From Patescibacteria group bacterium (GTDB lineage: Bacteria; Patescibacteriota; Minisyncoccia; Phycocordibacterales; Zambryskibacteraceae), in the NCBI GenBank assembly GCA_038061835.1, contig JBBTYJ010000015.1, positions 3,907 to 67,906 of the forward strand: DNA of 64,000 nucleotides. The letters run 5' to 3'. The first letter of the stretch is position 1. Each line of letters opens with the position of its first letter. The notes under the pieces were generated by a model. The model was given only the letters and a program-made list of their open reading frames with translations, was not told the origin of the DNA and did no database searches. Positions 502 through 50,180 of this stretch are shown here, piece after piece. Both the position numbers and the translations under genes were made by a program.

Positions 502-1104
502 TTATTTAGTCCGATGCAAGAAAGCGTTTTTGAGAGTTTCTGGGTCAGCATACTCAAGTTCAGCACCAGTTGAGAGTCCCTTACCTAAAGTGGTAAATAT
601 CAAGGGTAGCCCTTGATATTTTTGTTTGATAAATTCAGCGGTATTCTCTCCGTCAAGATTGGCGTTCATAGCTAAAATAATTTCTTTAATACTTTTATCA
701 TTCTTGATCCGTGATTCTAAATTCTTGATTCTTATCCTCTTCTCAGGTTCTTTTTCAAGAATCGGGATAACACCTCCTAAAATAAAATAATATCCTTTAT
801 AGCCGCCGCTTCGTTCCACCGCTTCAAAATCAATATCTCTTGGCACAATCATAAGCATTGAATTATCTCTGGAATTATCGGAGCATATGGCACAAATTTT
901 GGATTCATATCCATTCTTAGCGTAATATCGCATGCATTTCTCACATTGGATAATTTCTTTTTTTATACTTTGAATTGCTTTTATTAATTCACTGGCATAG
1001 TCGCCGTTTCTAGAAAGAAGAAAGTACACGAAACGTTTGGCCTGTCTCGGCCCGATACCCGGAAACCGAGCGAATATTTCCGATAATTTATCTATTGAAT
1101 TCAT
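502..1104 (-). CDS. recR: Recombination protein RecR
   Basis: N-terminal HhH FPGIGPRQAKRF, C4 zinc finger (CEKC...CAIC), Toprim-like C-terminus; 200 aa. Confidence 0.9.
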   Translation of the reverse strand: MNSIDKLSEIFARFPGIGPRQAKRFVYFLLSRNGDYASELIKAIQSIKKEIIQCEKCMRYYAKNGYESKICAICSDNSRDNSMLMIVPRDIDFEAVERSGGYKGYYFILGGVIPILEKEPEKRIRIKNLESRIKNDKSIKEIILAMNANLDGENTAEFIKQKYQGLPLIFTTLGKGLSTGAELEYADPETLKNAFLHRTK

Positions 1105-2527: not shown

Positions 2528-2660
2528 AACACTATGCTACCAGTCTGGCTTTCCGCCGCAAACTGGAAAAAGTTGAAAAGTCAGGGTGTAAGTTGGGGAG
2601 AACCTGGTGGTTCGACATTAATCTTATGAGGATTATTTTTTCTGTCTAAATATCCCAAAT

Positions 2661-2679
2661 AGCAAGGTTAAACCTTGCT
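2661..2679. repeat. REP-like palindrome copy 1 (AGCAAGGTT-A-AACCTTGCT, perfect 9-bp arms)
   Basis: Perfect palindrome read directly; same core as the two copies flanking the RAYT gene. Confidence 0.7.
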
Positions 2680-2745
2680 CCACAAAAAGAATGTGGTATT
2701 CTCCTAGCAGGTAGTTCACGAATTAATGTTAAGGAGGAAACGACA

Positions 2746-2916
2746 ATGACAGAAGACACAATTCTTAAGATGTTGGGCGTGATAGGGATTATTTTACTGA
2801 TTGCTTTGGCAATCAAGGGAATCTACCGGCGATACAAGATGAATGGGACGCTAGATGAGAAAGAGGGGAGACAACTCAAAAATAGAAAAACGGTAATATA
2901 TCGACGAGACAATTAG
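2746..2916 (+). CDS. Small hydrophobic protein (56 aa, one predicted TM) with strong SD; not in ORF track (<60 aa)
   Basis: TAAGGAGG 8 nt upstream of ATG; translation MTEDTILKMLGVIGIILLIALAIKGIYRRYKMNGTLDEKEGRQLKNRKTVIYRRDN. Confidence 0.4.
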   Translation: MTEDTILKMLGVIGIILLIALAIKGIYRRYKMNGTLDEKEGRQLKNRKTVIYRRDN

Positions 2917-3013
2917 AGAAAAAGAGGAATTGGGTATTGGTTGATAGAAACAACTTCGACCCTCGGTTTGTCCAAATTTATTTAGGTAAACCGGGGGTTG
3001 TTTTTTATATTTA

Positions 3014-3036
3014 AATATCAAGGTTTAACCTTGCTC
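3014..3036. repeat. REP-like palindrome copy 2 (AATATCAAGGTTTAACCTTGCTC)
   Basis: 23-bp exact direct repeat of copy 3; contains palindrome CAAGGTT-T-AACCTTG; 30 bp upstream of RAYT start. Confidence 0.7.
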
Positions 3037-3065
3037 TAAAGGTCGATTATTGATATAACTTTTGT

Positions 3066-3743
3066 ATGTCCACACGAGTTCCATTTGGCACTGGGGAGTG
3101 GTATCACTGTTACTGTCGTGGCGTTGATAAACGCAAAGTATTTTTAGAATCAAAAGACTATGAAAGATTTATTCTTTCTATGCATGCTGGAAATGGCCCA
3201 TTAGCCGTACATCTCTCAAATATTTTGAGAAATAAAAAATTTAATGAGATTCTTACAACACTTTTTCAGAATGAACATCTGGTTGATATTGGAGCATTTT
3301 GCCTTATGCCAAATCATTTTCACTTACTGCTTAAAGAAGTGGAGGAAGGTGGTATATCGCTTTTTATGCAAAAGGTTTTAACGGGATACACTATGTATTT
3401 TAATGAGAAATATGAGCGGAAGGGTGCCTTATTTGCAAATACCTATAATTCTCGACATATTTTTGATGACAGATACTTTAAGAAAGTTATAGCCTATATA
3501 CATCTGAACCCGGTCGAGTTAGATGAAATAAATTGGAAGGTGGGAAGTGGGGATATTAGAAAAATAGAAAAAAGACTACGTAATTATAAATACTCGAGTC
3601 TCTCTGCCTTTACAGATATCGAAAATCCAAGCAACTCTATTATCTCTGGTTCGGTTTTAGAAATATTTGACTCACTTCCATCAATCAGAGAAATGCTGGC
3701 AGACGCTCAAACTTATTATCAAGAACAAAATATCAAGGTTTAA
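3066..3743 (+). CDS. IS200/IS605-family Y1 (HuH) transposase-like, REP-associated tyrosine transposase (RAYT)-like
   Basis: HuH motif FCLMPNHFHLLL, catalytic-Tyr region YIHLNPV, N-terminal WYHCYCRGVDKRKVF; flanked by REP palindromes; 225 aa. Confidence 0.8.
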   Translation: MSTRVPFGTGEWYHCYCRGVDKRKVFLESKDYERFILSMHAGNGPLAVHLSNILRNKKFNEILTTLFQNEHLVDIGAFCLMPNHFHLLLKEVEEGGISLFMQKVLTGYTMYFNEKYERKGALFANTYNSRHIFDDRYFKKVIAYIHLNPVELDEINWKVGSGDIRKIEKRLRNYKYSSLSAFTDIENPSNSIISGSVLEIFDSLPSIREMLADAQTYYQEQNIKV

Positions 3744-3751
3744 CCTTGCTC
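3729..3751. repeat. REP-like palindrome copy 3 (AATATCAAGGTTTAACCTTGCTC); overlaps RAYT stop codon
   Basis: Exact 23-bp repeat of copy 2; TAA stop of the RAYT gene lies inside the palindrome (GTT TAA CC). Confidence 0.7.
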
Positions 3752-3763
3752 AAAGATGGCTAG

Positions 3764-41503: not shown

Positions 41504-42112
41504 TTAGATTAGAGTCTTAAGTACCTTAAAATCTTCTTTAAGGGTATCGAGCAGATGCTGATTGTAAATTGCGGCAGCGGGGTGATAAAGAGGAATGAAT
41601 TTAAAGGTCAGACCTTGAGAATTTATATCTAAGGTCTGACCTTGGAAGACTTTGCCGTGTAATTTACTTATAGAATCCAGTTCCCATTCAAGACCATATC
41701 TCGTCATCACATATTGCATTGAGAATCGACCGAGCGTTGCTACCACTTTCGGTTTAATAATTTCAATCTGACGATCCAAAAACGGCGCATAGATTTCTAT
41801 CTCGTCGGGATACGGATCGCGATTACCTGGTGGACGATCTTTGACAATATTAGTCACGTACACATCCTTCCTGTCTATGCCAACAGAAGTTAAAAGTATG
41901 TCCAAGACCTTTCCTGCCCGCCCGCAAAACGGCTTGCCGGTCTTGGCTTCGTTTTCCCCTGGTGCCTCGCCGATAAACATTATGTCAGCTGAATGATTTC
42001 CTTCTCCTATTACCGGGAAATACTTGTTCTTTACTCGTTCGGCATAAAGCGGTGAGGCCACAAGACCAATAATCTCGTTCTTAATTTTTTTTAATTCTTC
42101 ATCACAATTCAT
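41504..42112 (-). CDS. Uracil-DNA glycosylase, family 4 type
   Basis: GEGNHSADIMFIGEAPG motif and 4Fe-4S-type Cys pattern; 202 aa. Confidence 0.8.
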   Translation of the reverse strand: MNCDEELKKIKNEIIGLVASPLYAERVKNKYFPVIGEGNHSADIMFIGEAPGENEAKTGKPFCGRAGKVLDILLTSVGIDRKDVYVTNIVKDRPPGNRDPYPDEIEIYAPFLDRQIEIIKPKVVATLGRFSMQYVMTRYGLEWELDSISKLHGKVFQGQTLDINSQGLTFKFIPLYHPAAAIYNQHLLDTLKEDFKVLKTLI

Positions 42113-43669: not shown

Positions 43670-44830
43670 CTATTTGATTATACTATCCATCACTCCGCCG
43701 CCGAGACAAGCGCTTGCGCCATCCTTATCAAGATCGCCGTAAAACACTATTGATTGGCCTAGGGACAATCCGCGCACTGGTTCTCTAAACTCCACCTCCA
43801 CCCTGTCAAAAGCTAAGCTTTTGACAGTAACTGGGAGTTTGTTTCCGCGGTATCGTATTCGGGCAAATAGTTGTCGTGTTTTAAATTCATTGATCCAATT
43901 TACACCCTTAACCACAATTCGTGTCGGTGAATGTAATACCATCTCCAGCTCATTATTTGAAACAGTGAGAGTATTCGCCTTCATATCTTTGGATAAAATA
44001 TAAAACGCTCCTTCCTCCGGTGACCTCTTGGTGATTTCGAAACCGTGTCTTTCTCCTATGGTATAAAGCAAGGCGCCCTTGTGAGTACCGATGATATCGC
44101 CGCGAGTATTTAGTACCTTGCCCGGTTTGGTTTTAATAAAATGAGAAAGAAATTCATCCATCGATACATCGCCGATAAAACAAATCCCCTGACTATCTTT
44201 CTTCTCAGAAACCGGCAGATGATACCTACGGGCCAGTTTTCGCACTTCGCCTTTCTCTAAATCACCGATGGGAAAACATGTATGGGATAAATCATTTTGA
44301 TTGAGAGTCCAGAGAAAATAACTTTGATCCTTTCCTCTATCTTTCCCCTCTTTCAGCAAATATCGATACAGAGGTTTAACCTTTGTAGTCCCAAGGTTAA
44401 ACCTCTGTATTTGAGAATAGTGTCCGGTGGCAATAAAATCTGCCCCCATTTCTCGAGCCTTTTTCCAAAACGCGCCAAATTTAATTTCTCTGTTGCAAAG
44501 CACGTCTGGATTCGGTGTCCGGCCGACCTTGTATTCGGCCACCATCTTGTCCGCTACATCCTTTTTATACTCCTTTTCAAAATCAAAAAAGAGAAACGGG
44601 ATATCAAGCGCAATCGCCACTTTCATCGCATCGCGTCTCTCGTCTCTCCAATTGCAAGGCAAAAAATCCGGTTGCCAGACTTTTATAAATACACCCGTGA
44701 CGTTGTAACCGGCTTTCTTCAAAAGCGCGGCGCTGACCGCGGAATCCACACCTCCAGATAAACCTACAAAAATTTTACGATGAGAGGTATTTGGTAATGT
44801 TTTTTTTATGTTCATCGAAAGTCTTGGCAT
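43670..44830 (-). CDS. mnmA: tRNA-specific 2-thiouridylase MnmA
   Basis: PP-loop SGGVDS, catalytic Cys regions, DQSYFLWTL; carries an in-frame ~10-aa insertion encoded by a REP doublet. Confidence 0.85.
   Translation of the reverse strand: MPRLSMNIKKTLPNTSHRKIFVGLSGGVDSAVSAALLKKAGYNVTGVFIKVWQPDFLPCNWRDERRDAMKVAIALDIPFLFFDFEKEYKKDVADKMVAEYKVGRTPNPDVLCNREIKFGAFWKKAREMGADFIATGHYSQIQRFNLGTTKVKPLYRYLLKEGKDRGKDQSYFLWTLNQNDLSHTCFPIGDLEKGEVRKLARRYHLPVSEKKDSQGICFIGDVSMDEFLSHFIKTKPGKVLNTRGDIIGTHKGALLYTIGERHGFEITKRSPEEGAFYILSKDMKANTLTVSNNELEMVLHSPTRIVVKGVNWINEFKTRQLFARIRYRGNKLPVTVKSLAFDRVEVEFREPVRGLSLGQSIVFYGDLDKDGASACLGGGVMDSIIK
44368..44408. repeat. REP-like palindrome doublet inside mnmA coding sequence (ACAGAGGTTTAACC-13 nt-GGTTAAACCTCTGT)
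   Basis: Perfect 14-bp inverted repeat whose cores (GGTTTAACC / GGTTAAACC) match the REP copies flanking the RAYT gene. Confidence 0.65.
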
Positions 44831-47999: not shown

Positions 48000-50180
48000 T
48001 CAGGTTACAATGCTGACAATTTTCCCAGGTATCATAATAATCTTCTTGGGATTTTTTCCACCAAGCCATTTTTGAACCTCTGACAGAGCCAAGACGTTTA
48101 TTCTTATTTCTTCCTCACTTTGACTGCGAGTAACAAGCAAATTAGCTCTCACCTTACCATCAACTTGCACAGCCAAATTTACTTCATCTTTTACCAATTT
48201 CTTCAAATCGTAAGTCGGCCAACTTTGGACATGAATGGAATCTTTGTGTCCGAGAGATGCCCATAATTCTTCGGTAATATGCGGAGCAAAAGGCGCAAGA
48301 AGTAAAATTAAAGTCTCGAATTCTTTTTGGAAAATTTCTTTTTGCTTATCCAGAGCATTGACGTAGATCATCAGAGCAGACACCGCAGTATTAAATCCCA
48401 TAGACTCTATATCGTCAGATACTTTCTTAATCGTTTGATGCATCAAGGTCTCGCTCTTTAAGGTCAGACCTTTGGAAACTTTGGATTGAAGCCGCCAGAC
48501 CTTCTCCAAAAATCTCCGCGGACCAACAAGCGCATCTTCGCTCCAAGCAATGGCTTGTTCGAATGGACCCATAAACATCTCGTAGAGCCGCAGGGTGTCC
48601 GCACCAAAACGTTCTGCTATAGTGTCGGGATTAATGACATTGCCTTTTGATTTACTCATCTTCTCTCCCCCCTCGGCTAAAATCAGTCCGTGAGAAGTAC
48701 GTTTCTTGTATGGTTCGCTCGTGGGAACAAGTTTCAGATCATAAAGAAATTTGTTCCAAAAACGCGAATATAAAAGATGAAGCACCGTGTGTTCCATACC
48801 GCCGTTATACCAGTCAACCCCGCCATGGCGGGGCAAGTCGCCATCCAGCCAATATTTCAGTTTATCCAGAGATGCAAATTCTCTATCATTAAACGGGTCG
48901 CAATAACGTAGGAAATACCAGGATGATCCGGCCCAATTTGGCATGACGTCAGTTTCCCTTTTGGCTTGTTCATTACAATTTGGACATTTGACATTCACCC
49001 ATTCCGTGATATTAGCAAGCGGAGATTCACCATCCGGTCCAGGTTCATATTTATCCACTTTAGGCAGTTCCACCGGTAAATCTTTTTCCGGTACCGGCAC
49101 AACGCCACACTTGTCACAGTGAATCACCGGAATGGGCTCACCCCAATAACGCTGACGTGAGAAAACCCAATCGCGTAGTTTGTACTTGACGACCCTTTTG
49201 CCAAAATCTTCGAATTTAGCTCTTTGGTATTCCTTAATAATTGCTAAATTATGTTTCTTTGCAAATATCATATCGCGTTCATCATCGGCAGGAACACCCA
49301 TGATAGCGCCGGTACCATAATCAGACATTACATATTCTGCCTCCCAGACCGGAATCTTCTCTTTGGTCGCGGGATTAGTCACGAAGCGACCAGTAAATTT
49401 ATCTTCCTTGCCATTAACCACGACAAAAGTGGCTCCAAAAATCGTATCAGGCCGTGTGGTAAAAATTTCAACATCATCAAATTTAATCAGTACCCCTTCG
49501 CTCCTTCCGATCCAGTTTTTTTGTTGGGTTTTGACTCGTTTCGGATAATCTACGCTGTCTAAATCTTTTTCAAGTCTTTCGGCATATTTAGTAATAGCAA
49601 GCATCCACTGTTCTTTCTCCTTCTGTTCAACAGATGTGCCGCAACGTTCACAACCACCATCAACCACTTCCTCATTGGCCAGACCAATCTTACATTTCGG
49701 ACACCAATTAATTGGAATCTTTGCCTTGTATGCCAAACCTTTTTCAAGAAATTTAAGAAATATCCACTGCGTCCATTTGTAGTATTTGGGATTTGAAGTA
49801 TCAATCTCTCTAGACCAATCAAAAGAGAGGCCTAATCTTTTAAGTTGCGCACGAAAATTGTCTGTATTTTCTTTTGTAATCTCTGCAGGCTGTCTGCCAG
49901 TTTTGATCGCATAATTCTCCGTTGGTAAACCGAATGAATCCCAGCCGATCGGATACAGGACATTAAATCCTTCCATCCATCTTTTACGCGCAATAATATC
50001 CATCGCTGTATAGGCTCTCACGTGACCAAGATGAATCCCCACACCAGATGGATACGGAAACTCTACCAATGCGTAATATTTTGGTTTCTTGGAATTATTG
50101 TTCGCTTGATAGATTCCGGATTTTTCCCACTCTGTTTGCCACTTAGTTTCTATCTCTTTAGGATTATATTCCCTAGCCAT
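48000..50180 (-). CDS. leuS: Leucine--tRNA ligase
   Basis: PYPSGVGIHLGHV HIGH region, CP1 TTRPDT motif, KMSKS; 726 aa. Confidence 0.9.
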   Translation of the reverse strand: MAREYNPKEIETKWQTEWEKSGIYQANNNSKKPKYYALVEFPYPSGVGIHLGHVRAYTAMDIIARKRWMEGFNVLYPIGWDSFGLPTENYAIKTGRQPAEITKENTDNFRAQLKRLGLSFDWSREIDTSNPKYYKWTQWIFLKFLEKGLAYKAKIPINWCPKCKIGLANEEVVDGGCERCGTSVEQKEKEQWMLAITKYAERLEKDLDSVDYPKRVKTQQKNWIGRSEGVLIKFDDVEIFTTRPDTIFGATFVVVNGKEDKFTGRFVTNPATKEKIPVWEAEYVMSDYGTGAIMGVPADDERDMIFAKKHNLAIIKEYQRAKFEDFGKRVVKYKLRDWVFSRQRYWGEPIPVIHCDKCGVVPVPEKDLPVELPKVDKYEPGPDGESPLANITEWVNVKCPNCNEQAKRETDVMPNWAGSSWYFLRYCDPFNDREFASLDKLKYWLDGDLPRHGGVDWYNGGMEHTVLHLLYSRFWNKFLYDLKLVPTSEPYKKRTSHGLILAEGGEKMSKSKGNVINPDTIAERFGADTLRLYEMFMGPFEQAIAWSEDALVGPRRFLEKVWRLQSKVSKGLTLKSETLMHQTIKKVSDDIESMGFNTAVSALMIYVNALDKQKEIFQKEFETLILLLAPFAPHITEELWASLGHKDSIHVQSWPTYDLKKLVKDEVNLAVQVDGKVRANLLVTRSQSEEEIRINVLALSEVQKWLGGKNPKKIIMIPGKIVSIVT

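What the first reader, a model, noticed from the sequence alone, without database searches (positions are those of the whole stretch)
2661..3751. RAYT-like Y1 transposase gene bracketed by REP palindromes
ORF 3066-3743 has the IS200/RAYT HuH motif (FCLMPNHFHLLL) and the Tyr region (YIHLNPV). It is flanked at 3014-3036 and 3729-3751 by an identical 23-mer, AATATCAAGGTTTAACCTTGCTC, containing the palindrome CAAGGTT-T-AACCTTG. A third perfect-palindrome variant (AGCAAGGTTAAACCTTGCT) lies at 2661-2679. The RAYT stop codon is embedded in the 3' REP. This is the canonical RAYT/REP association but with direct rather than inverted flanking copies. At 225 aa the protein is longer than typical RAYTs, with an extra C-terminal region.
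Basis: partly seen in the sequence, partly recalled or inferred. Interest (0 to 1): 0.6.

Follow-up and report, generated by a model that had tools for sequence, protein, structure and literature searches.

The report
RAYT-like gene with cognate hairpin repeats
A groundwater Patescibacteria genome carries an intact single-strand-DNA 'tyrosine transposase' gene framed by copies of its own short DNA hairpin; the same hairpin also sits in frame inside a housekeeping gene, so this is a REP/RAYT-type system in a phylum where, as far as the paper library I searched shows, none has been described.

Summary
ORF 3066-3743 is an intact HUH/Y1 enzyme. It passes the Pfam Y1_Tnp threshold, and the best fold match of its AF2 model is the E. 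coli REP-associated transposase 4ER8. Three direct copies of AAATA[G/T]CAAGGTT[A/T]AACCTTGCTC lie at 2657, 3013 and 3728, and the stop codon is the centre of the third.

The arrangement is family-wide. At least 2990 Patescibacteria homologues of about 225 aa exist. About 70 of 82 examined loci have matched hairpins, one beside a -10 box 6-7 nt before the ATG (leaderless mRNA) and one at or after the stop.

Here the gene is vertically inherited between dnaB and cysS, because two relatives are syntenic. In another subgroup the hairpin-gene-hairpin block sits in unrelated contexts.

The hairpin is dispersed. An inverted doublet of the same core lies in frame inside mnmA (44370-44406). Related hairpins lie in recR, a uracil-DNA glycosylase gene and leuS. 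Close orthologues lack these inserts.

It is not a canonical REP. There is no GT[AG]G foot, the score is below the NCBIfam RAYT cut-off, and the motifs match TnpAY1 subclass 2.1.

Verdict: a REPtron-like system, a new variant of a known kind. Enzyme activity on the hairpins is inferred, not shown.

The parts
2657..2683 (.). Hairpin copy 1 (AAATAGCAAGGTTAAACCTTGCTCCAC). The perfect 9+1+9 palindrome is 2661-2679, with an A centre.
   Evidence: ssDNA fold -9 kcal/mol, z=-6.65
2746..2916 (+). orf56, a 56-aa predicted single-pass membrane peptide with a strong Shine-Dalgarno sequence (AAGGAGG). It sits between hairpin copies 1 and 2. It is absent from the syntenic loci L213 and L009, so it is a lineage-specific segment acquired at the hairpin site.
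   Evidence: no Pfam or PADLOC hit
2959..3007 (+). Strong stem-loop followed by TTGTTTTTT. It looks like an intrinsic terminator for orf56 and lies immediately before hairpin copy 2.
   Evidence: fourth fold; weak sub-threshold Rfam hit only
3013..3039 (.). Hairpin copy 2, upstream of the Y1 gene. Its first 24 nt are identical to copy 3.
   Evidence: same position as in homologues
3054..3059 (+). -10 box TATAAC, 6 nt before the ATG, with no Shine-Dalgarno sequence. This implies a leaderless mRNA. The hairpin occupies the -35/spacer region.
   Evidence: 44 of 50 family loci have TAnnnT starting at -14..-10 (control 6%), and 0 of 50 have an SD-like motif
3066..3743 (+). HUH/Y1 (RAYT/TIRYT-like) single-strand DNA endonuclease-ligase gene, 225 aa. 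HuH is H84-F-H86. The putative catalytic Tyr is Y144, in YIHLNP.
3728..3754 (.). Hairpin copy 3. It encodes the last residues ..NIKV and contains the stop codon (3741-3743). On the minus strand it is followed by ATATTTTGTT, a terminator-like tail for the convergent cysS.
44370..44406 (.). Orphan inverted doublet of the same core: ACAGAGGTTTAACCTTTG-tagtcc-CAAGGTTAAACCTCTGT. The 16-nt arms are complementary (REPIN-like). It is in frame inside mnmA (43670-44830, minus strand) and encodes RFNLGTTKVKPLY.
   Evidence: 47 of 120 close MnmA homologues lack any insert at this site
595..621 (.). Related hairpin AAATATCAAGGGTAGCCCTTGATATTT (12-bp stem) inside recR, encoding KYQGLPLIF. It has the same ATATCAAGG/CCTTGATAT stem as the Y1-flanking copies but a different loop.
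41604..41643 (.). Inverted doublet of a second hairpin type (AAGGTCAGACCTT / AAGGTCTGACCTT), in frame inside a family-4 uracil-DNA glycosylase gene (41504-42112, minus strand). It encodes QGQTLDINSQGLT.
   Evidence: 82 of 120 orthologues at 78-89% identity lack the insert, 19 have it, and 2 have a single unit
48460..48472 (.). Single hairpin AAGGTCAGACCTT inside leuS (48000-50180, minus strand), encoding KGLTL.

Best explanation
This is a REPtron-like module of Patescibacteria. It is an intact, vertically inherited HUH/Y1 enzyme gene (RAYT/TIRYT class) framed by copies of its cognate short DNA hairpin (core CAAGGTT[W]AACCTTG).

Shown:
- The protein has the Y1 fold, with invariant HuH and Tyr residues.
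- The hairpin-gene-hairpin layout is conserved across the family. The upstream hairpin abuts a -10 box that sits 6-7 nt before the ATG. The downstream hairpin overlaps or follows the stop codon.
- In this lineage the gene has stayed between dnaB and cysS.
- The same hairpin core, and sister hairpin types, occur elsewhere in the genome as single units and inverted doublets. These are mostly in frame inside housekeeping genes, at sites where close orthologues have no insert.

Inferred:
- By analogy with E. coli TnpAREP and IS608/ISDra2 TnpA, the enzyme binds these hairpins when they fold out of single-stranded DNA, for example on the lagging-strand template. It then cleaves and rejoins them through a 5'-phosphotyrosine intermediate.
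- This activity spreads or turns over hairpins and doublets. It occasionally relocates the whole hairpin-bounded gene block, and it lets extra DNA (here the 356-bp orf56 segment) be taken in at a hairpin.
- Binding at the promoter-proximal hairpin probably also autoregulates the leaderless gene.
For: Enzyme:
- Pfam Y1_Tnp scores above its threshold.
- H84, H86, Y144 and N148 are invariant in 29 diverse homologues.
- The AF2 model has pLDDT 90.8. Its top PDB fold hit is 4ER8 (RAYT bound to a REP hairpin), followed by ISDra2, IS608 and IS200 TnpA.

Layout:
- Matched upstream and downstream hairpins occur in L006, L007 and L009 and in about 70 of 82 loci.
- The lower stems differ between loci but stay complementary. 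The upper stem, YRAGG..CCTYR, is conserved. The two copies within a locus resemble each other.
- C-termini ending ..KV* or ..KVKP show the reading frame running into the palindrome.

Promoter: the -10 box result.

Vertical inheritance: L213 (Y1 77% identical) and L009 (64%) share dnaB|Y1|cysS|S41. Their neighbours have diverged to a similar degree (DnaB 84-88%, CysS 45-56%).

Block mobility: five genes 83-88% identical at the nucleotide level have unrelated flanks. Their similarity starts at the upstream hairpin in four of the five (L251 lacks that hairpin, and its similarity starts at the -10 box). In the four loci that extend past the gene it ends at the downstream hairpin (L249 stops at its contig end inside the gene).

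Dispersal:
- The 11-mer core occurs 5 times in the window against 1.25 expected.
- The doublet lies in mnmA and shows presence/absence polymorphism among orthologues. The same holds for the glycosylase gene.
- The pattern is enriched in Patescibacteria: 34 of 80 listed genome hits. Several lie inside KsgA, MurB, PheT, TsaD, LeuS and LigA.
- Strict palindromic AGG..CCT 13-mers occur at 20-49 per Mb in Patescibacteria DNA. The figures are about 5 per Mb in other genomes and viral contigs and 0.4-3 per Mb in shuffles.

Capture at hairpins:
- orf56 is absent from the syntenic relatives.
- L234 and L237 have hairpin, 118-aa ORF, hairpin, Y1.
- L261 has hairpin-bounded ParE toxin modules next to a Y1 paralogue.
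Against: - No biochemical link between this protein and these hairpins has been shown.
- Only 64 kb (plus 7 kb in L001) of the source genome could be read. The genome-wide copy number is therefore unknown. Only one orphan doublet of the exact cognate type was found.
- In 579 kb of flanks of homologous loci, the locus-specific 15-mer core is almost never found more than 1 kb from the gene.
- Orphan hairpin types often differ from the type flanking the Y1 gene on the same contig. Cognate pairing is therefore not demonstrated.
- The canonical REP hallmark GT[AG]G is absent, and the NCBIfam RAYT model is below its cut-off.
- Hairpin copies 2 and 3 are weak as isolated ssDNA hairpins (-4.3 kcal/mol).
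- Some intragenic hairpins (recR, LigA, the single-unit glycosylase form) cause no length change. Simple insertion does not explain these.
Confidence: 0.65

Rival explanations
1. It is an autonomous IS200-like mini insertion sequence. The roughly 740-bp block from hairpin to hairpin would be a selfish element that still transposes itself, with the two hairpins as its left and right ends. The dispersed hairpins would be solo ends or derivatives without a transposase.
For: - The unit size (3013-3754, 742 bp) is close to that of IS200.
- The hairpins lie in direct orientation at both ends, as IS200/IS605 left and right ends do on one strand.
- In the L232/L244/L249/L251/L267 group, 83-88% identical copies sit in unrelated flanks, and similarity is bounded by the hairpins in most of them.
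- Partial hairpin duplications occur at the junctions.
Against: - The Y motif is Y---NP (class 2, TnpAREP type). It is not the Y---Q of IS200 transposases (PMC6006769).
- There is only one copy in 64 kb.
- The gene has stayed at dnaB|cysS while diverging to 64-77% identity, in step with its neighbours. That is the behaviour of a housekeeping-like RAYT (PMC5581495).
- No two near-identical copies in different contexts were seen. The closest non-syntenic pair is 88% identical.
Confidence: 0.12
2. The flanking palindromes are only expression signals. The upstream one would be an operator at the promoter. The downstream one would be a bidirectional terminator shared with cysS. The dispersed look-alike hairpins would be unrelated to the enzyme.
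For: - The upstream hairpin abuts the -10 box in nearly all family members.
- On the minus strand the 3' hairpin is followed by a T-rich tail 16 nt after the cysS stop.
Against: - On the plus strand the 3' hairpin has no T tract.
- The two copies within a locus evolve in concert while differing between loci. Independent promoter and terminator elements would not be expected to do this.
- The same core recurs as inverted doublets inside coding sequences, where it cannot serve as a promoter or terminator.
- Block boundaries in non-syntenic copies coincide with the hairpins.
Confidence: 0.1
3. It is a hairpin-based gene-capture platform, an integron analogue. The hairpins would be recombination sites, each delimiting a cassette (orf56; the Y1 gene itself; toxin-antitoxin modules in relatives). 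The Y1 enzyme would act as the cassette recombinase.
For: - The window has hairpin, orf56, hairpin, Y1, hairpin as direct repeats. The orf56 unit is missing from the syntenic relatives.
- L234 and L237 have a 118-aa ORF between hairpins.
- L261 has two ParE toxin modules, each bounded by hairpins, next to a Y1 paralogue.
- L228 has an array of hairpin units around the gene: six copies of the 15-mer and eight of the AGGTTWAACCT core.
Against: - Most loci (more than 70 of 82) have just the two hairpins and no cargo.
- No cassette was seen in two different arrays.
- The bulk of dispersed hairpins are bare singles or doublets inside genes.
- No circular cassette evidence exists.
Confidence: 0.08

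Closest known systems
REPtron: E. coli TnpAREP (RAYT, PDB 4ER8) with its flanking REP/BIME sequences
   Same: - It is an HUH/Y1 enzyme with the Y---NP motif.
- It is the best fold match of the AF2 model.
- It is a single gene framed by its cognate hairpins.
- The hairpins also occur dispersed and as inverted doublets.
- Its inheritance is vertical and housekeeping-like (PMC5581495; PMC8266576).
   Different: - There is no GT[AG]G tetranucleotide at the hairpin foot.
- The hairpins are short, near-perfect palindromes without a bulge.
- The protein is 225 aa against 165 aa and falls below the NCBIfam RAYT cut-off.
- The copy number appears modest.
- Most dispersed copies are inside genes.
- The 3' hairpin carries the stop codon, and the 5' hairpin sits on the promoter of a leaderless mRNA.
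TnpAY1 subclass 2.1 / TIRYT-TIRtron (Quentin et al. 2018, PMC6006769; Di Nocera et al. 2013, PMC3733652)
   Same: - The key motifs match by inspection: NH[YF]H (NHFH), the FQ-type W-motif (FMQ), Y[IV]HLNP (YIHLNP), and an SS tail motif (YSS).
- The length is similar: 225 aa against a median of 238 aa.
- The copy number is low.
   Different: - Subclass 2.1 is reported to have no REP-like hairpins. It has long terminal inverted repeats (GGGGWSAS) and a C-terminal HTH domain (Bac_DnaA_C, HTH_23 or HTH_28).
- Here Pfam finds no HTH domain, and the flanks are short hairpins.
- 'Patescibacteria' does not occur in any RAYT/REPIN paper of the search, and 'Parcubacteria' does not occur in PMC6006769.
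IS200 (IS200/IS605 family, TnpAY1 subclass 1.1)
   Same: - It is a hairpin-bounded unit of about 0.7 kb that encodes only a Y1 enzyme.
- Its end hairpins are in the same orientation.
- Some relatives occupy unrelated genomic contexts.
   Different: - The Y motif here is Y---NP, not Y---Q.
- The protein is 225 aa against about 150 aa.
- It is single-copy and syntenic in this lineage.
REPINs (Pseudomonas) and intragenic REPs
   Same: - Inverted doublets whose two arms pair into a long hairpin (44370-44406; 41604-41643).
- In-frame REP insertions in genes, including replication and repair genes, were reported by Di Nocera et al. 2013.
- REP insertions inside tnpAREP genes are known for subclass 2.4. 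The hairpins at about +165 within some homologues here are comparable.
   Different: - The units are much shorter (13-17 nt), and the doublets are only about 37-40 nt.
- They are predominantly intragenic.
- The same loop site in MnmA is occupied by different hairpin types in different lineages.

Membership tests
HUH/Y1 transposase superfamily (Pfam PF01797 Y1_Tnp) | Profile match above the curated gathering score | tested here: met
   33.2 bits against a cut-off of 23, E=6.5e-8
HUH/Y1 transposase superfamily (Pfam PF01797 Y1_Tnp) | HuH metal-binding motif and a single catalytic Tyr on a downstream helix | tested here: met
   H84-F-H86 and Y144 are invariant in 29 homologues. Y144 lies in helix 135-152 of the model.
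HUH/Y1 transposase superfamily (Pfam PF01797 Y1_Tnp) | Y1 transposase fold | tested here: met
   Foldseek probability is 1.00 to 4ER8, 2XO6, 2A6M, 2VJV and 2F4F. Sequence-only PDB search is weak, E about 0.9.
TnpAREP / RAYT with REPtron (class 2 of Quentin et al. 2018) | Y---NP signature of class 2 | tested here: met
   YIHLNP, with N148 invariant; definition from PMC6006769
TnpAREP / RAYT with REPtron (class 2 of Quentin et al. 2018) | Match to the NCBIfam equivalog REP_Tyr_transpos (NF047646) above its cut-off | tested here: not met
   46.6 bits against a cut-off of 80
TnpAREP / RAYT with REPtron (class 2 of Quentin et al. 2018) | Gene flanked within 1 kb by copies of one hairpin family | tested here: met
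   Three copies lie at -403, -47 and at the stop. The arrangement is family-wide.
TnpAREP / RAYT with REPtron (class 2 of Quentin et al. 2018) | The same hairpin family is dispersed elsewhere in the genome, often as inverted pairs | tested here: met
   A doublet lies at 44370-44406. The count is known only for 64 kb. High copy number (more than 100 per genome) could not be tested.
TnpAREP / RAYT with REPtron (class 2 of Quentin et al. 2018) | Conserved 5' GT[AG]G tetranucleotide at the hairpin foot (canonical REP) | tested here: not met
   Information content is below 0.3 bit at all positions outside +-7 in 78 oriented sites.
TnpAREP / RAYT with REPtron (class 2 of Quentin et al. 2018) | Low copy number and vertical inheritance of the gene | tested here: met
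   There is one copy in the window. Synteny with L213 and L009 shows divergence matching the neighbours.
TnpAREP / RAYT with REPtron (class 2 of Quentin et al. 2018) | Strand-specific binding, cleavage and rejoining of the cognate ssDNA hairpin | not testable with these tools
   This needs a cleavage/strand-transfer assay such as that of PMC8266576.
TnpAY1 subclass 2.1 / TIRYT | Motifs NH[YF]H, FQ or W[EQ], Y[IV]HLNP, and an SS tail | tested here: met
   NHFH, FMQ, YIHLNP and YSS were read off alignment A1 and compared with Table 1 of PMC6006769. No subclass HMM was available.
TnpAY1 subclass 2.1 / TIRYT | C-terminal HTH domain (Bac_DnaA_C, HTH_23 or HTH_28) | tested here: not met
   No such Pfam hit appears at E<=1. 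The C-terminal region is helical in the model.
TnpAY1 subclass 2.1 / TIRYT | Long terminal inverted repeats (GGGGWSAS) instead of hairpins | tested here: not met
   The flanks are short hairpins. A GGGGAGAA-containing motif at 2576-2602 is a dnaB-upstream element and does not form an inverted pair.
IS200/IS605 insertion sequences (subclass 1.1) | Y---Q motif and a core-only protein of about 150 aa | tested here: not met
   The motif is YIHLNP and the protein is 225 aa.
IS200/IS605 insertion sequences (subclass 1.1) | Several near-identical copies per genome | tested here: inconclusive
   One copy lies in 64 kb.
Integron cassette array | Adjacent IntI tyrosine recombinase, with attC sites of 57-141 bp | tested here: not met
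   The neighbours are dnaB, recR, cysS and an S41 protease. The repeats are about 27 nt.

The most novel reading that the evidence does not exclude
Patescibacteria may carry a phylum-wide ssDNA 'copy-and-paste' system. In it, clades of Y1 enzymes would write their cognate 13-17-nt hairpins, singly or as inverted doublets, in frame into loops of essential proteins (MnmA, UDG, RecR, LeuS, KsgA, MurB, PheT, TsaD). Sometimes the hairpin would replace native sequence without changing its length. The same hairpins would serve as junctions to capture small gene cassettes (orf56; ParE toxin modules). This would be an HUH-based analogue of an integron that also remodels host proteins.
Probability: 0.2. 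Interest if true: 0.8.

Novelty: new variant of a known kind. Interest (0 to 1): 0.55.

Why it matters
REP/RAYT systems are known mainly from Proteobacteria, Cyanobacteria and Bacteroidetes. They are thought of as residents of intergenic space. Here a related system appears to be widespread in Patescibacteria, organisms with roughly 1-Mb streamlined genomes and almost no intergenic space.

It differs from the known systems in several ways:
- The enzyme belongs to a Y1 subclass reported to lack hairpin partners.
- The hairpins lack the GTAG guide.
- The gene is wired to its hairpins, with the promoter at one and the stop codon in the other.
- The dispersed copies live in frame inside essential genes.

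If the enzyme-hairpin link is confirmed, three things follow. It gives a compact, experimentally tractable pair for studying hairpin recognition without a guide tetranucleotide. It offers an explanation for some of the short lineage-specific inserts in proteins of these bacteria. It also provides markers for strain-level evolution in groundwater populations.

Tried and rejected
- Canonical REP with a GTAG foot: rejected. No conserved flanking tetranucleotide was found.
- 'Not dispersed at all': this was my interim conclusion. The exact 15-mer was confined to the locus in the window, and locus-specific cores were nearly absent from 579 kb of homologue flanks. I overturned it after relaxing the search to the 11-mer core and to other loop types.
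- 3' hairpin as the Y1 gene's own intrinsic terminator: rejected, because there is no T tract on the plus strand. It is terminator-like only for the convergent cysS.
- Known RNA family: none. The only hit is sub-threshold, on the orf56 terminator.
- Defence-system protein: none.
- Function for orf56 or the other cargo ORFs: Pfam gave nothing apart from the ParE toxins in L261.
- Phage association: 82 single-site hits in viral contigs look like chance.
- Cognate pairing of Y1-flanking hairpin type with orphan hairpin type on the same contig: inconclusive.
- Sequence-only PDB search: E about 0.9. The afdb50 fold library was unavailable.
The source assembly is not among the 80 stretches listed, so no genome-wide count was possible.
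- TIRYT-like GGGGWSAS repeats: the GGGGAGAA-containing motif at 2576-2602 is a conserved dnaB-upstream element, not an inverted repeat pair.
Full report
**1. Observation**

- ORF 3066-3743 (+) encodes 225 aa. FCLMPNHFHLLL is residues 78-89 and YIHLNPV is residues 144-150.
- The identical flanking repeat is 24 nt: AAATATCAAGGTTTAACCTTGCTC at 3013-3036 and 3728-3751.
- A third copy holds the perfect 19-nt palindrome at 2661-2679. With its flanks it aligns in direct register with the other two, so the spacings are 356 and 715 nt.
- The TAA stop (3741-3743) is the centre of the 3' palindrome.
- Chance is excluded. The 15-mer with up to 2 mismatches gives 4 hits against 0.2 expected. CAAGGN5CCTTG gives 4 against 0.05.

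**2. Source and neighbours**

The identical protein lies on a 109.8-kb contig of a Patescibacteria MAG (GCA_964364215.1) and on Hainich groundwater contigs. The neighbours are L21, recR and dnaB (minus strand) on one side. On the other are cysS (minus strand), an S41 protease, L9 and L27.

**3. The protein**

- Pfam Y1_Tnp passes its threshold: 33.2 bits against 23.
- The NCBIfam RAYT equivalog does not pass: 46.6 bits against 80.
- At least 2990 homologues exist. The top 120 are 216-280 aa long and cover 96-100% of the query. Every source name that identifies a taxon points to Patescibacteria or Parcubacteria. The C-terminal region is therefore a clade feature, not an extension peculiar to this copy.
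- In 29 diverse members, H84, H86, Y144 and N148 are invariant, and Y176, S177 and S178 are invariant or nearly so.
- An AF2 model (pLDDT 90.8) matches the E. coli REP-associated transposase bound to its REP hairpin best (4ER8, E=1.2e-5). ISDra2, IS608 and IS200 TnpA follow.
- Against the classification of Quentin et al. 2018 (PMC6006769), the motifs NHFH / FMQ / YIHLNP / YSS and the length fit subclass 2.1 (TIRYT-like). That subclass is reported to lack hairpin partners and to carry a C-terminal HTH domain. Pfam detects no such domain here.

**4. The hairpins belong to the gene family**

- Relatives at 64-77% identity carry the same palindrome 15-32 nt before the ATG and at the stop.
- Of 82 homologous loci, about 70 have matched hairpins upstream (11-60 nt before the ATG) and at or just after the stop.
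- The lower stem differs from locus to locus but stays complementary. The upper stem (YRAGG...CCTYR) is conserved. The loops fall into types such as TTWAA, CGAGG, TAAGA and TGACA.
- The two copies within a locus resemble each other. They are direct in some loci and inverted in others.
- Many homologues end in ..KV* or ..KVKP, which is the palindrome read in frame.
- In 44 of 50 loci, a TAnnnT hexamer starts 10-14 nt before the ATG (control 6%). None has a Shine-Dalgarno motif.
- The gene is therefore probably expressed as a leaderless mRNA whose promoter -35/spacer is occupied by the hairpin. In the window the -10 box is TATAAC at 3054-3059. Autoregulation is plausible but inferred.
- On the minus strand the 3' hairpin has a T-rich tail and could terminate the convergent cysS.

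**5. Inherited or mobile?**

- L213 (77% identical) and L009/L214 (64%) share dnaB|Y1|cysS|S41 with the window. Their neighbours have diverged comparably: DnaB 84-88%, CysS 45-56%, S41 65-76%. Here the gene behaves like a vertically inherited, single-copy RAYT (compare PMC5581495).
- L006 and L007 (72-77%) sit in other contexts.
- In the L232/L244/L249/L251/L267 group, genes 83-88% identical at the nucleotide level have unrelated flanks.
  - Similarity begins at the upstream hairpin in four of the five. L251 lacks that hairpin, and its similarity begins at the -10 box.
  - Similarity ends at the 3' foot of the downstream hairpin in the four loci that extend past the gene. L249 stops at its contig end inside the gene.
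  - Partial hairpin duplications occur at the junctions.
- So the hairpin-gene-hairpin block can relocate.
- The 356-bp segment between hairpin copies 1 and 2 holds orf56, which has a strong ribosome-binding site and its own terminator. It has no counterpart in the syntenic relatives, so it was acquired at the hairpin site.
- Similar hairpin-bounded cargo occurs in L234/L237 (a 118-aa ORF) and L261 (two ParE toxin modules next to a Y1 paralogue).

**6. Is the hairpin repetitive?**

- The exact 15-mer is confined to the locus in the window. Locus-specific cores are rare in 579 kb of homologue flanks.
- The 11-mer core AGGTTWAACCT occurs 5 times in the window against 1.25 expected.
- The two extra copies form an inverted doublet at 44370-44406 with 16-nt complementary arms. 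It lies in frame inside mnmA and encodes RFNLGTTKVKPLY.
- Among the 120 closest MnmA proteins, 47 have the short uninterrupted loop. Others carry inserts at the same site encoded by TTWAA-type or other hairpin types.
- The window also holds three related elements:
  - a hairpin with a 12-bp stem inside recR at 595-621;
  - an inverted doublet of the GTCWGAC type inside a family-4 uracil-DNA glycosylase gene at 41604-41643;
  - a single unit of that type in leuS at 48460.
- Of 120 glycosylase orthologues at 78-89% identity, 82 lack the insert, 19 have it, and 2 have a single unit.
Of the 80 listed hits, 34 are in Patescibacteria, and six of those are close A-centre/T-centre doublets.
- Several hits lie in frame in KsgA, MurB, PheT, ThiI, LeuS, TsaD and LigA.
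The figures are about 5 per Mb in other genomes and viral contigs and 0.4-3 per Mb in shuffles.
- The elements are thus REP-like in being dispersed and paired, but of modest copy number and mostly intragenic. No GT[AG]G-like foot is conserved.

**7. Interpretation**

The best reading is a REPtron-like system: a domesticated Y1 enzyme gene framed by its cognate hairpins. The same hairpin family is scattered through the genome. Occasionally the whole block relocates, and DNA is occasionally captured at hairpins.

Binding and cleavage of the folded single-stranded hairpin are inferred, not shown. The inference rests on the fold, the invariant catalytic residues and the behaviour of TnpAREP and IS608/ISDra2 TnpA (PMC8266576).

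The rivals each explain part of the data and are contradicted by other parts. They are an active IS200-like element, purely regulatory palindromes, and an integron-like cassette platform (see the rival entries).

**8. Novelty**

Flanking repeats that overlap the 5' or 3' end of tyrosine transposase genes are known, as are intragenic REPs (PMC3733652). REP insertions inside tnpAREP genes are known too (PMC6006769). No paper in the library links RAYT-type systems to Patescibacteria.

Four things differ here:
- the enzyme subclass;
- the guide-less mini-hairpins;
- the promoter and stop-codon coupling;
- the predominantly in-frame intragenic residence in streamlined genomes.

I rate it a new variant of a known kind, of moderate to good interest.

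Noticed in passing
window 2576-2602; L213 293-319 and 1197-1223; L009 4934-4960: A conserved non-coding motif, AAAAGTyAGkGTGTAAGyTGGGGAGAA, lies upstream of dnaB in all three syntenic genomes. In L213 a second exact copy sits immediately after the 3' hairpin of the Y1 gene, so the Y1 block there is bracketed by a 27-nt direct repeat. It may be a dnaB promoter or leader element, or a footprint of how the block entered.
   Followed up: partly
window 595-621 (inside recR, 502-1104 minus strand): A perfect palindrome with a 12-bp stem encodes KYQGLPLIF without lengthening RecR. L009 recR has a near-palindrome at the same codons. Protein constraint alone would give such a DNA palindrome with a chance of roughly 1 in 4600 by my codon-choice estimate. 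The hairpin therefore looks maintained at the DNA level, or written in by replacement rather than insertion.
   Followed up: partly
window 41604-41643 (uracil-DNA glycosylase) and homologues P0241-P0360: Orthologues show three states at one site. Most have no hairpin (VFTTDKFKV). Two have a single hairpin unit of the same length (VFQGQTFKF). Nineteen have the doublet, 9 aa longer (VFQGQTLDINSQGLTFKF). The single-unit state has the same length as the hairpin-free state, which simple insertion does not explain.
   Followed up: partly
MnmA homologues P0121-P0240, loop after ATGHY: The same loop site carries inserts encoded by different hairpin types in different lineages: RFNL..KVKP, PRSDLG..KVGP, PRFDLG..EVEPR, LPSPPLG..EGRAR and NSNIENSLKIKNS. 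This points to a hot spot or to in-place turnover of hairpin type.
   Followed up: partly
L266, L268, L245, L280, L285 (about +156 to +187 nt inside the Y1 genes): Some homologues carry an extra copy of their own hairpin inside the Y1 coding sequence, in the variable region around residue 55. This recalls the REP insertions inside tnpAREP genes described for subclass 2.4.
   Followed up: no
L261 3471-5992: Four copies of CAAGGCCTCGCCTTG delimit segments. Two hold ParE-family toxin genes with small upstream ORFs, and a third holds a second, divergent Y1 gene on the opposite strand.
   Followed up: partly
L108, L121, L139, L155, L157 (Bacteroidia bacterium SKYG108, JANWVE01 contigs): One non-Patescibacteria genome has six copies of the same 15-mer on five contigs. 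They sit within a longer conserved repeat (..ttttcaagyayataCAAGGTTAAACCTTG..), which looks like an unrelated repeat family of its own.
   Followed up: no
L118 1153-1200, L153 1719-1770, L149 1536-1560: In three Patescibacteria contigs the hairpin is followed by one or two copies of CCTTGCCG[GT]AGGCTAAA. This is a second short repeat attached to the hairpin.
   Followed up: no
window 1-64000: Cumulative GC skew rises to a maximum near 8-10 kb and then falls steadily to the end of the window. The sign change lies about 5-7 kb from the dnaB/Y1 locus. It could mark a replication origin or terminus, but I did not test this.
   Followed up: no
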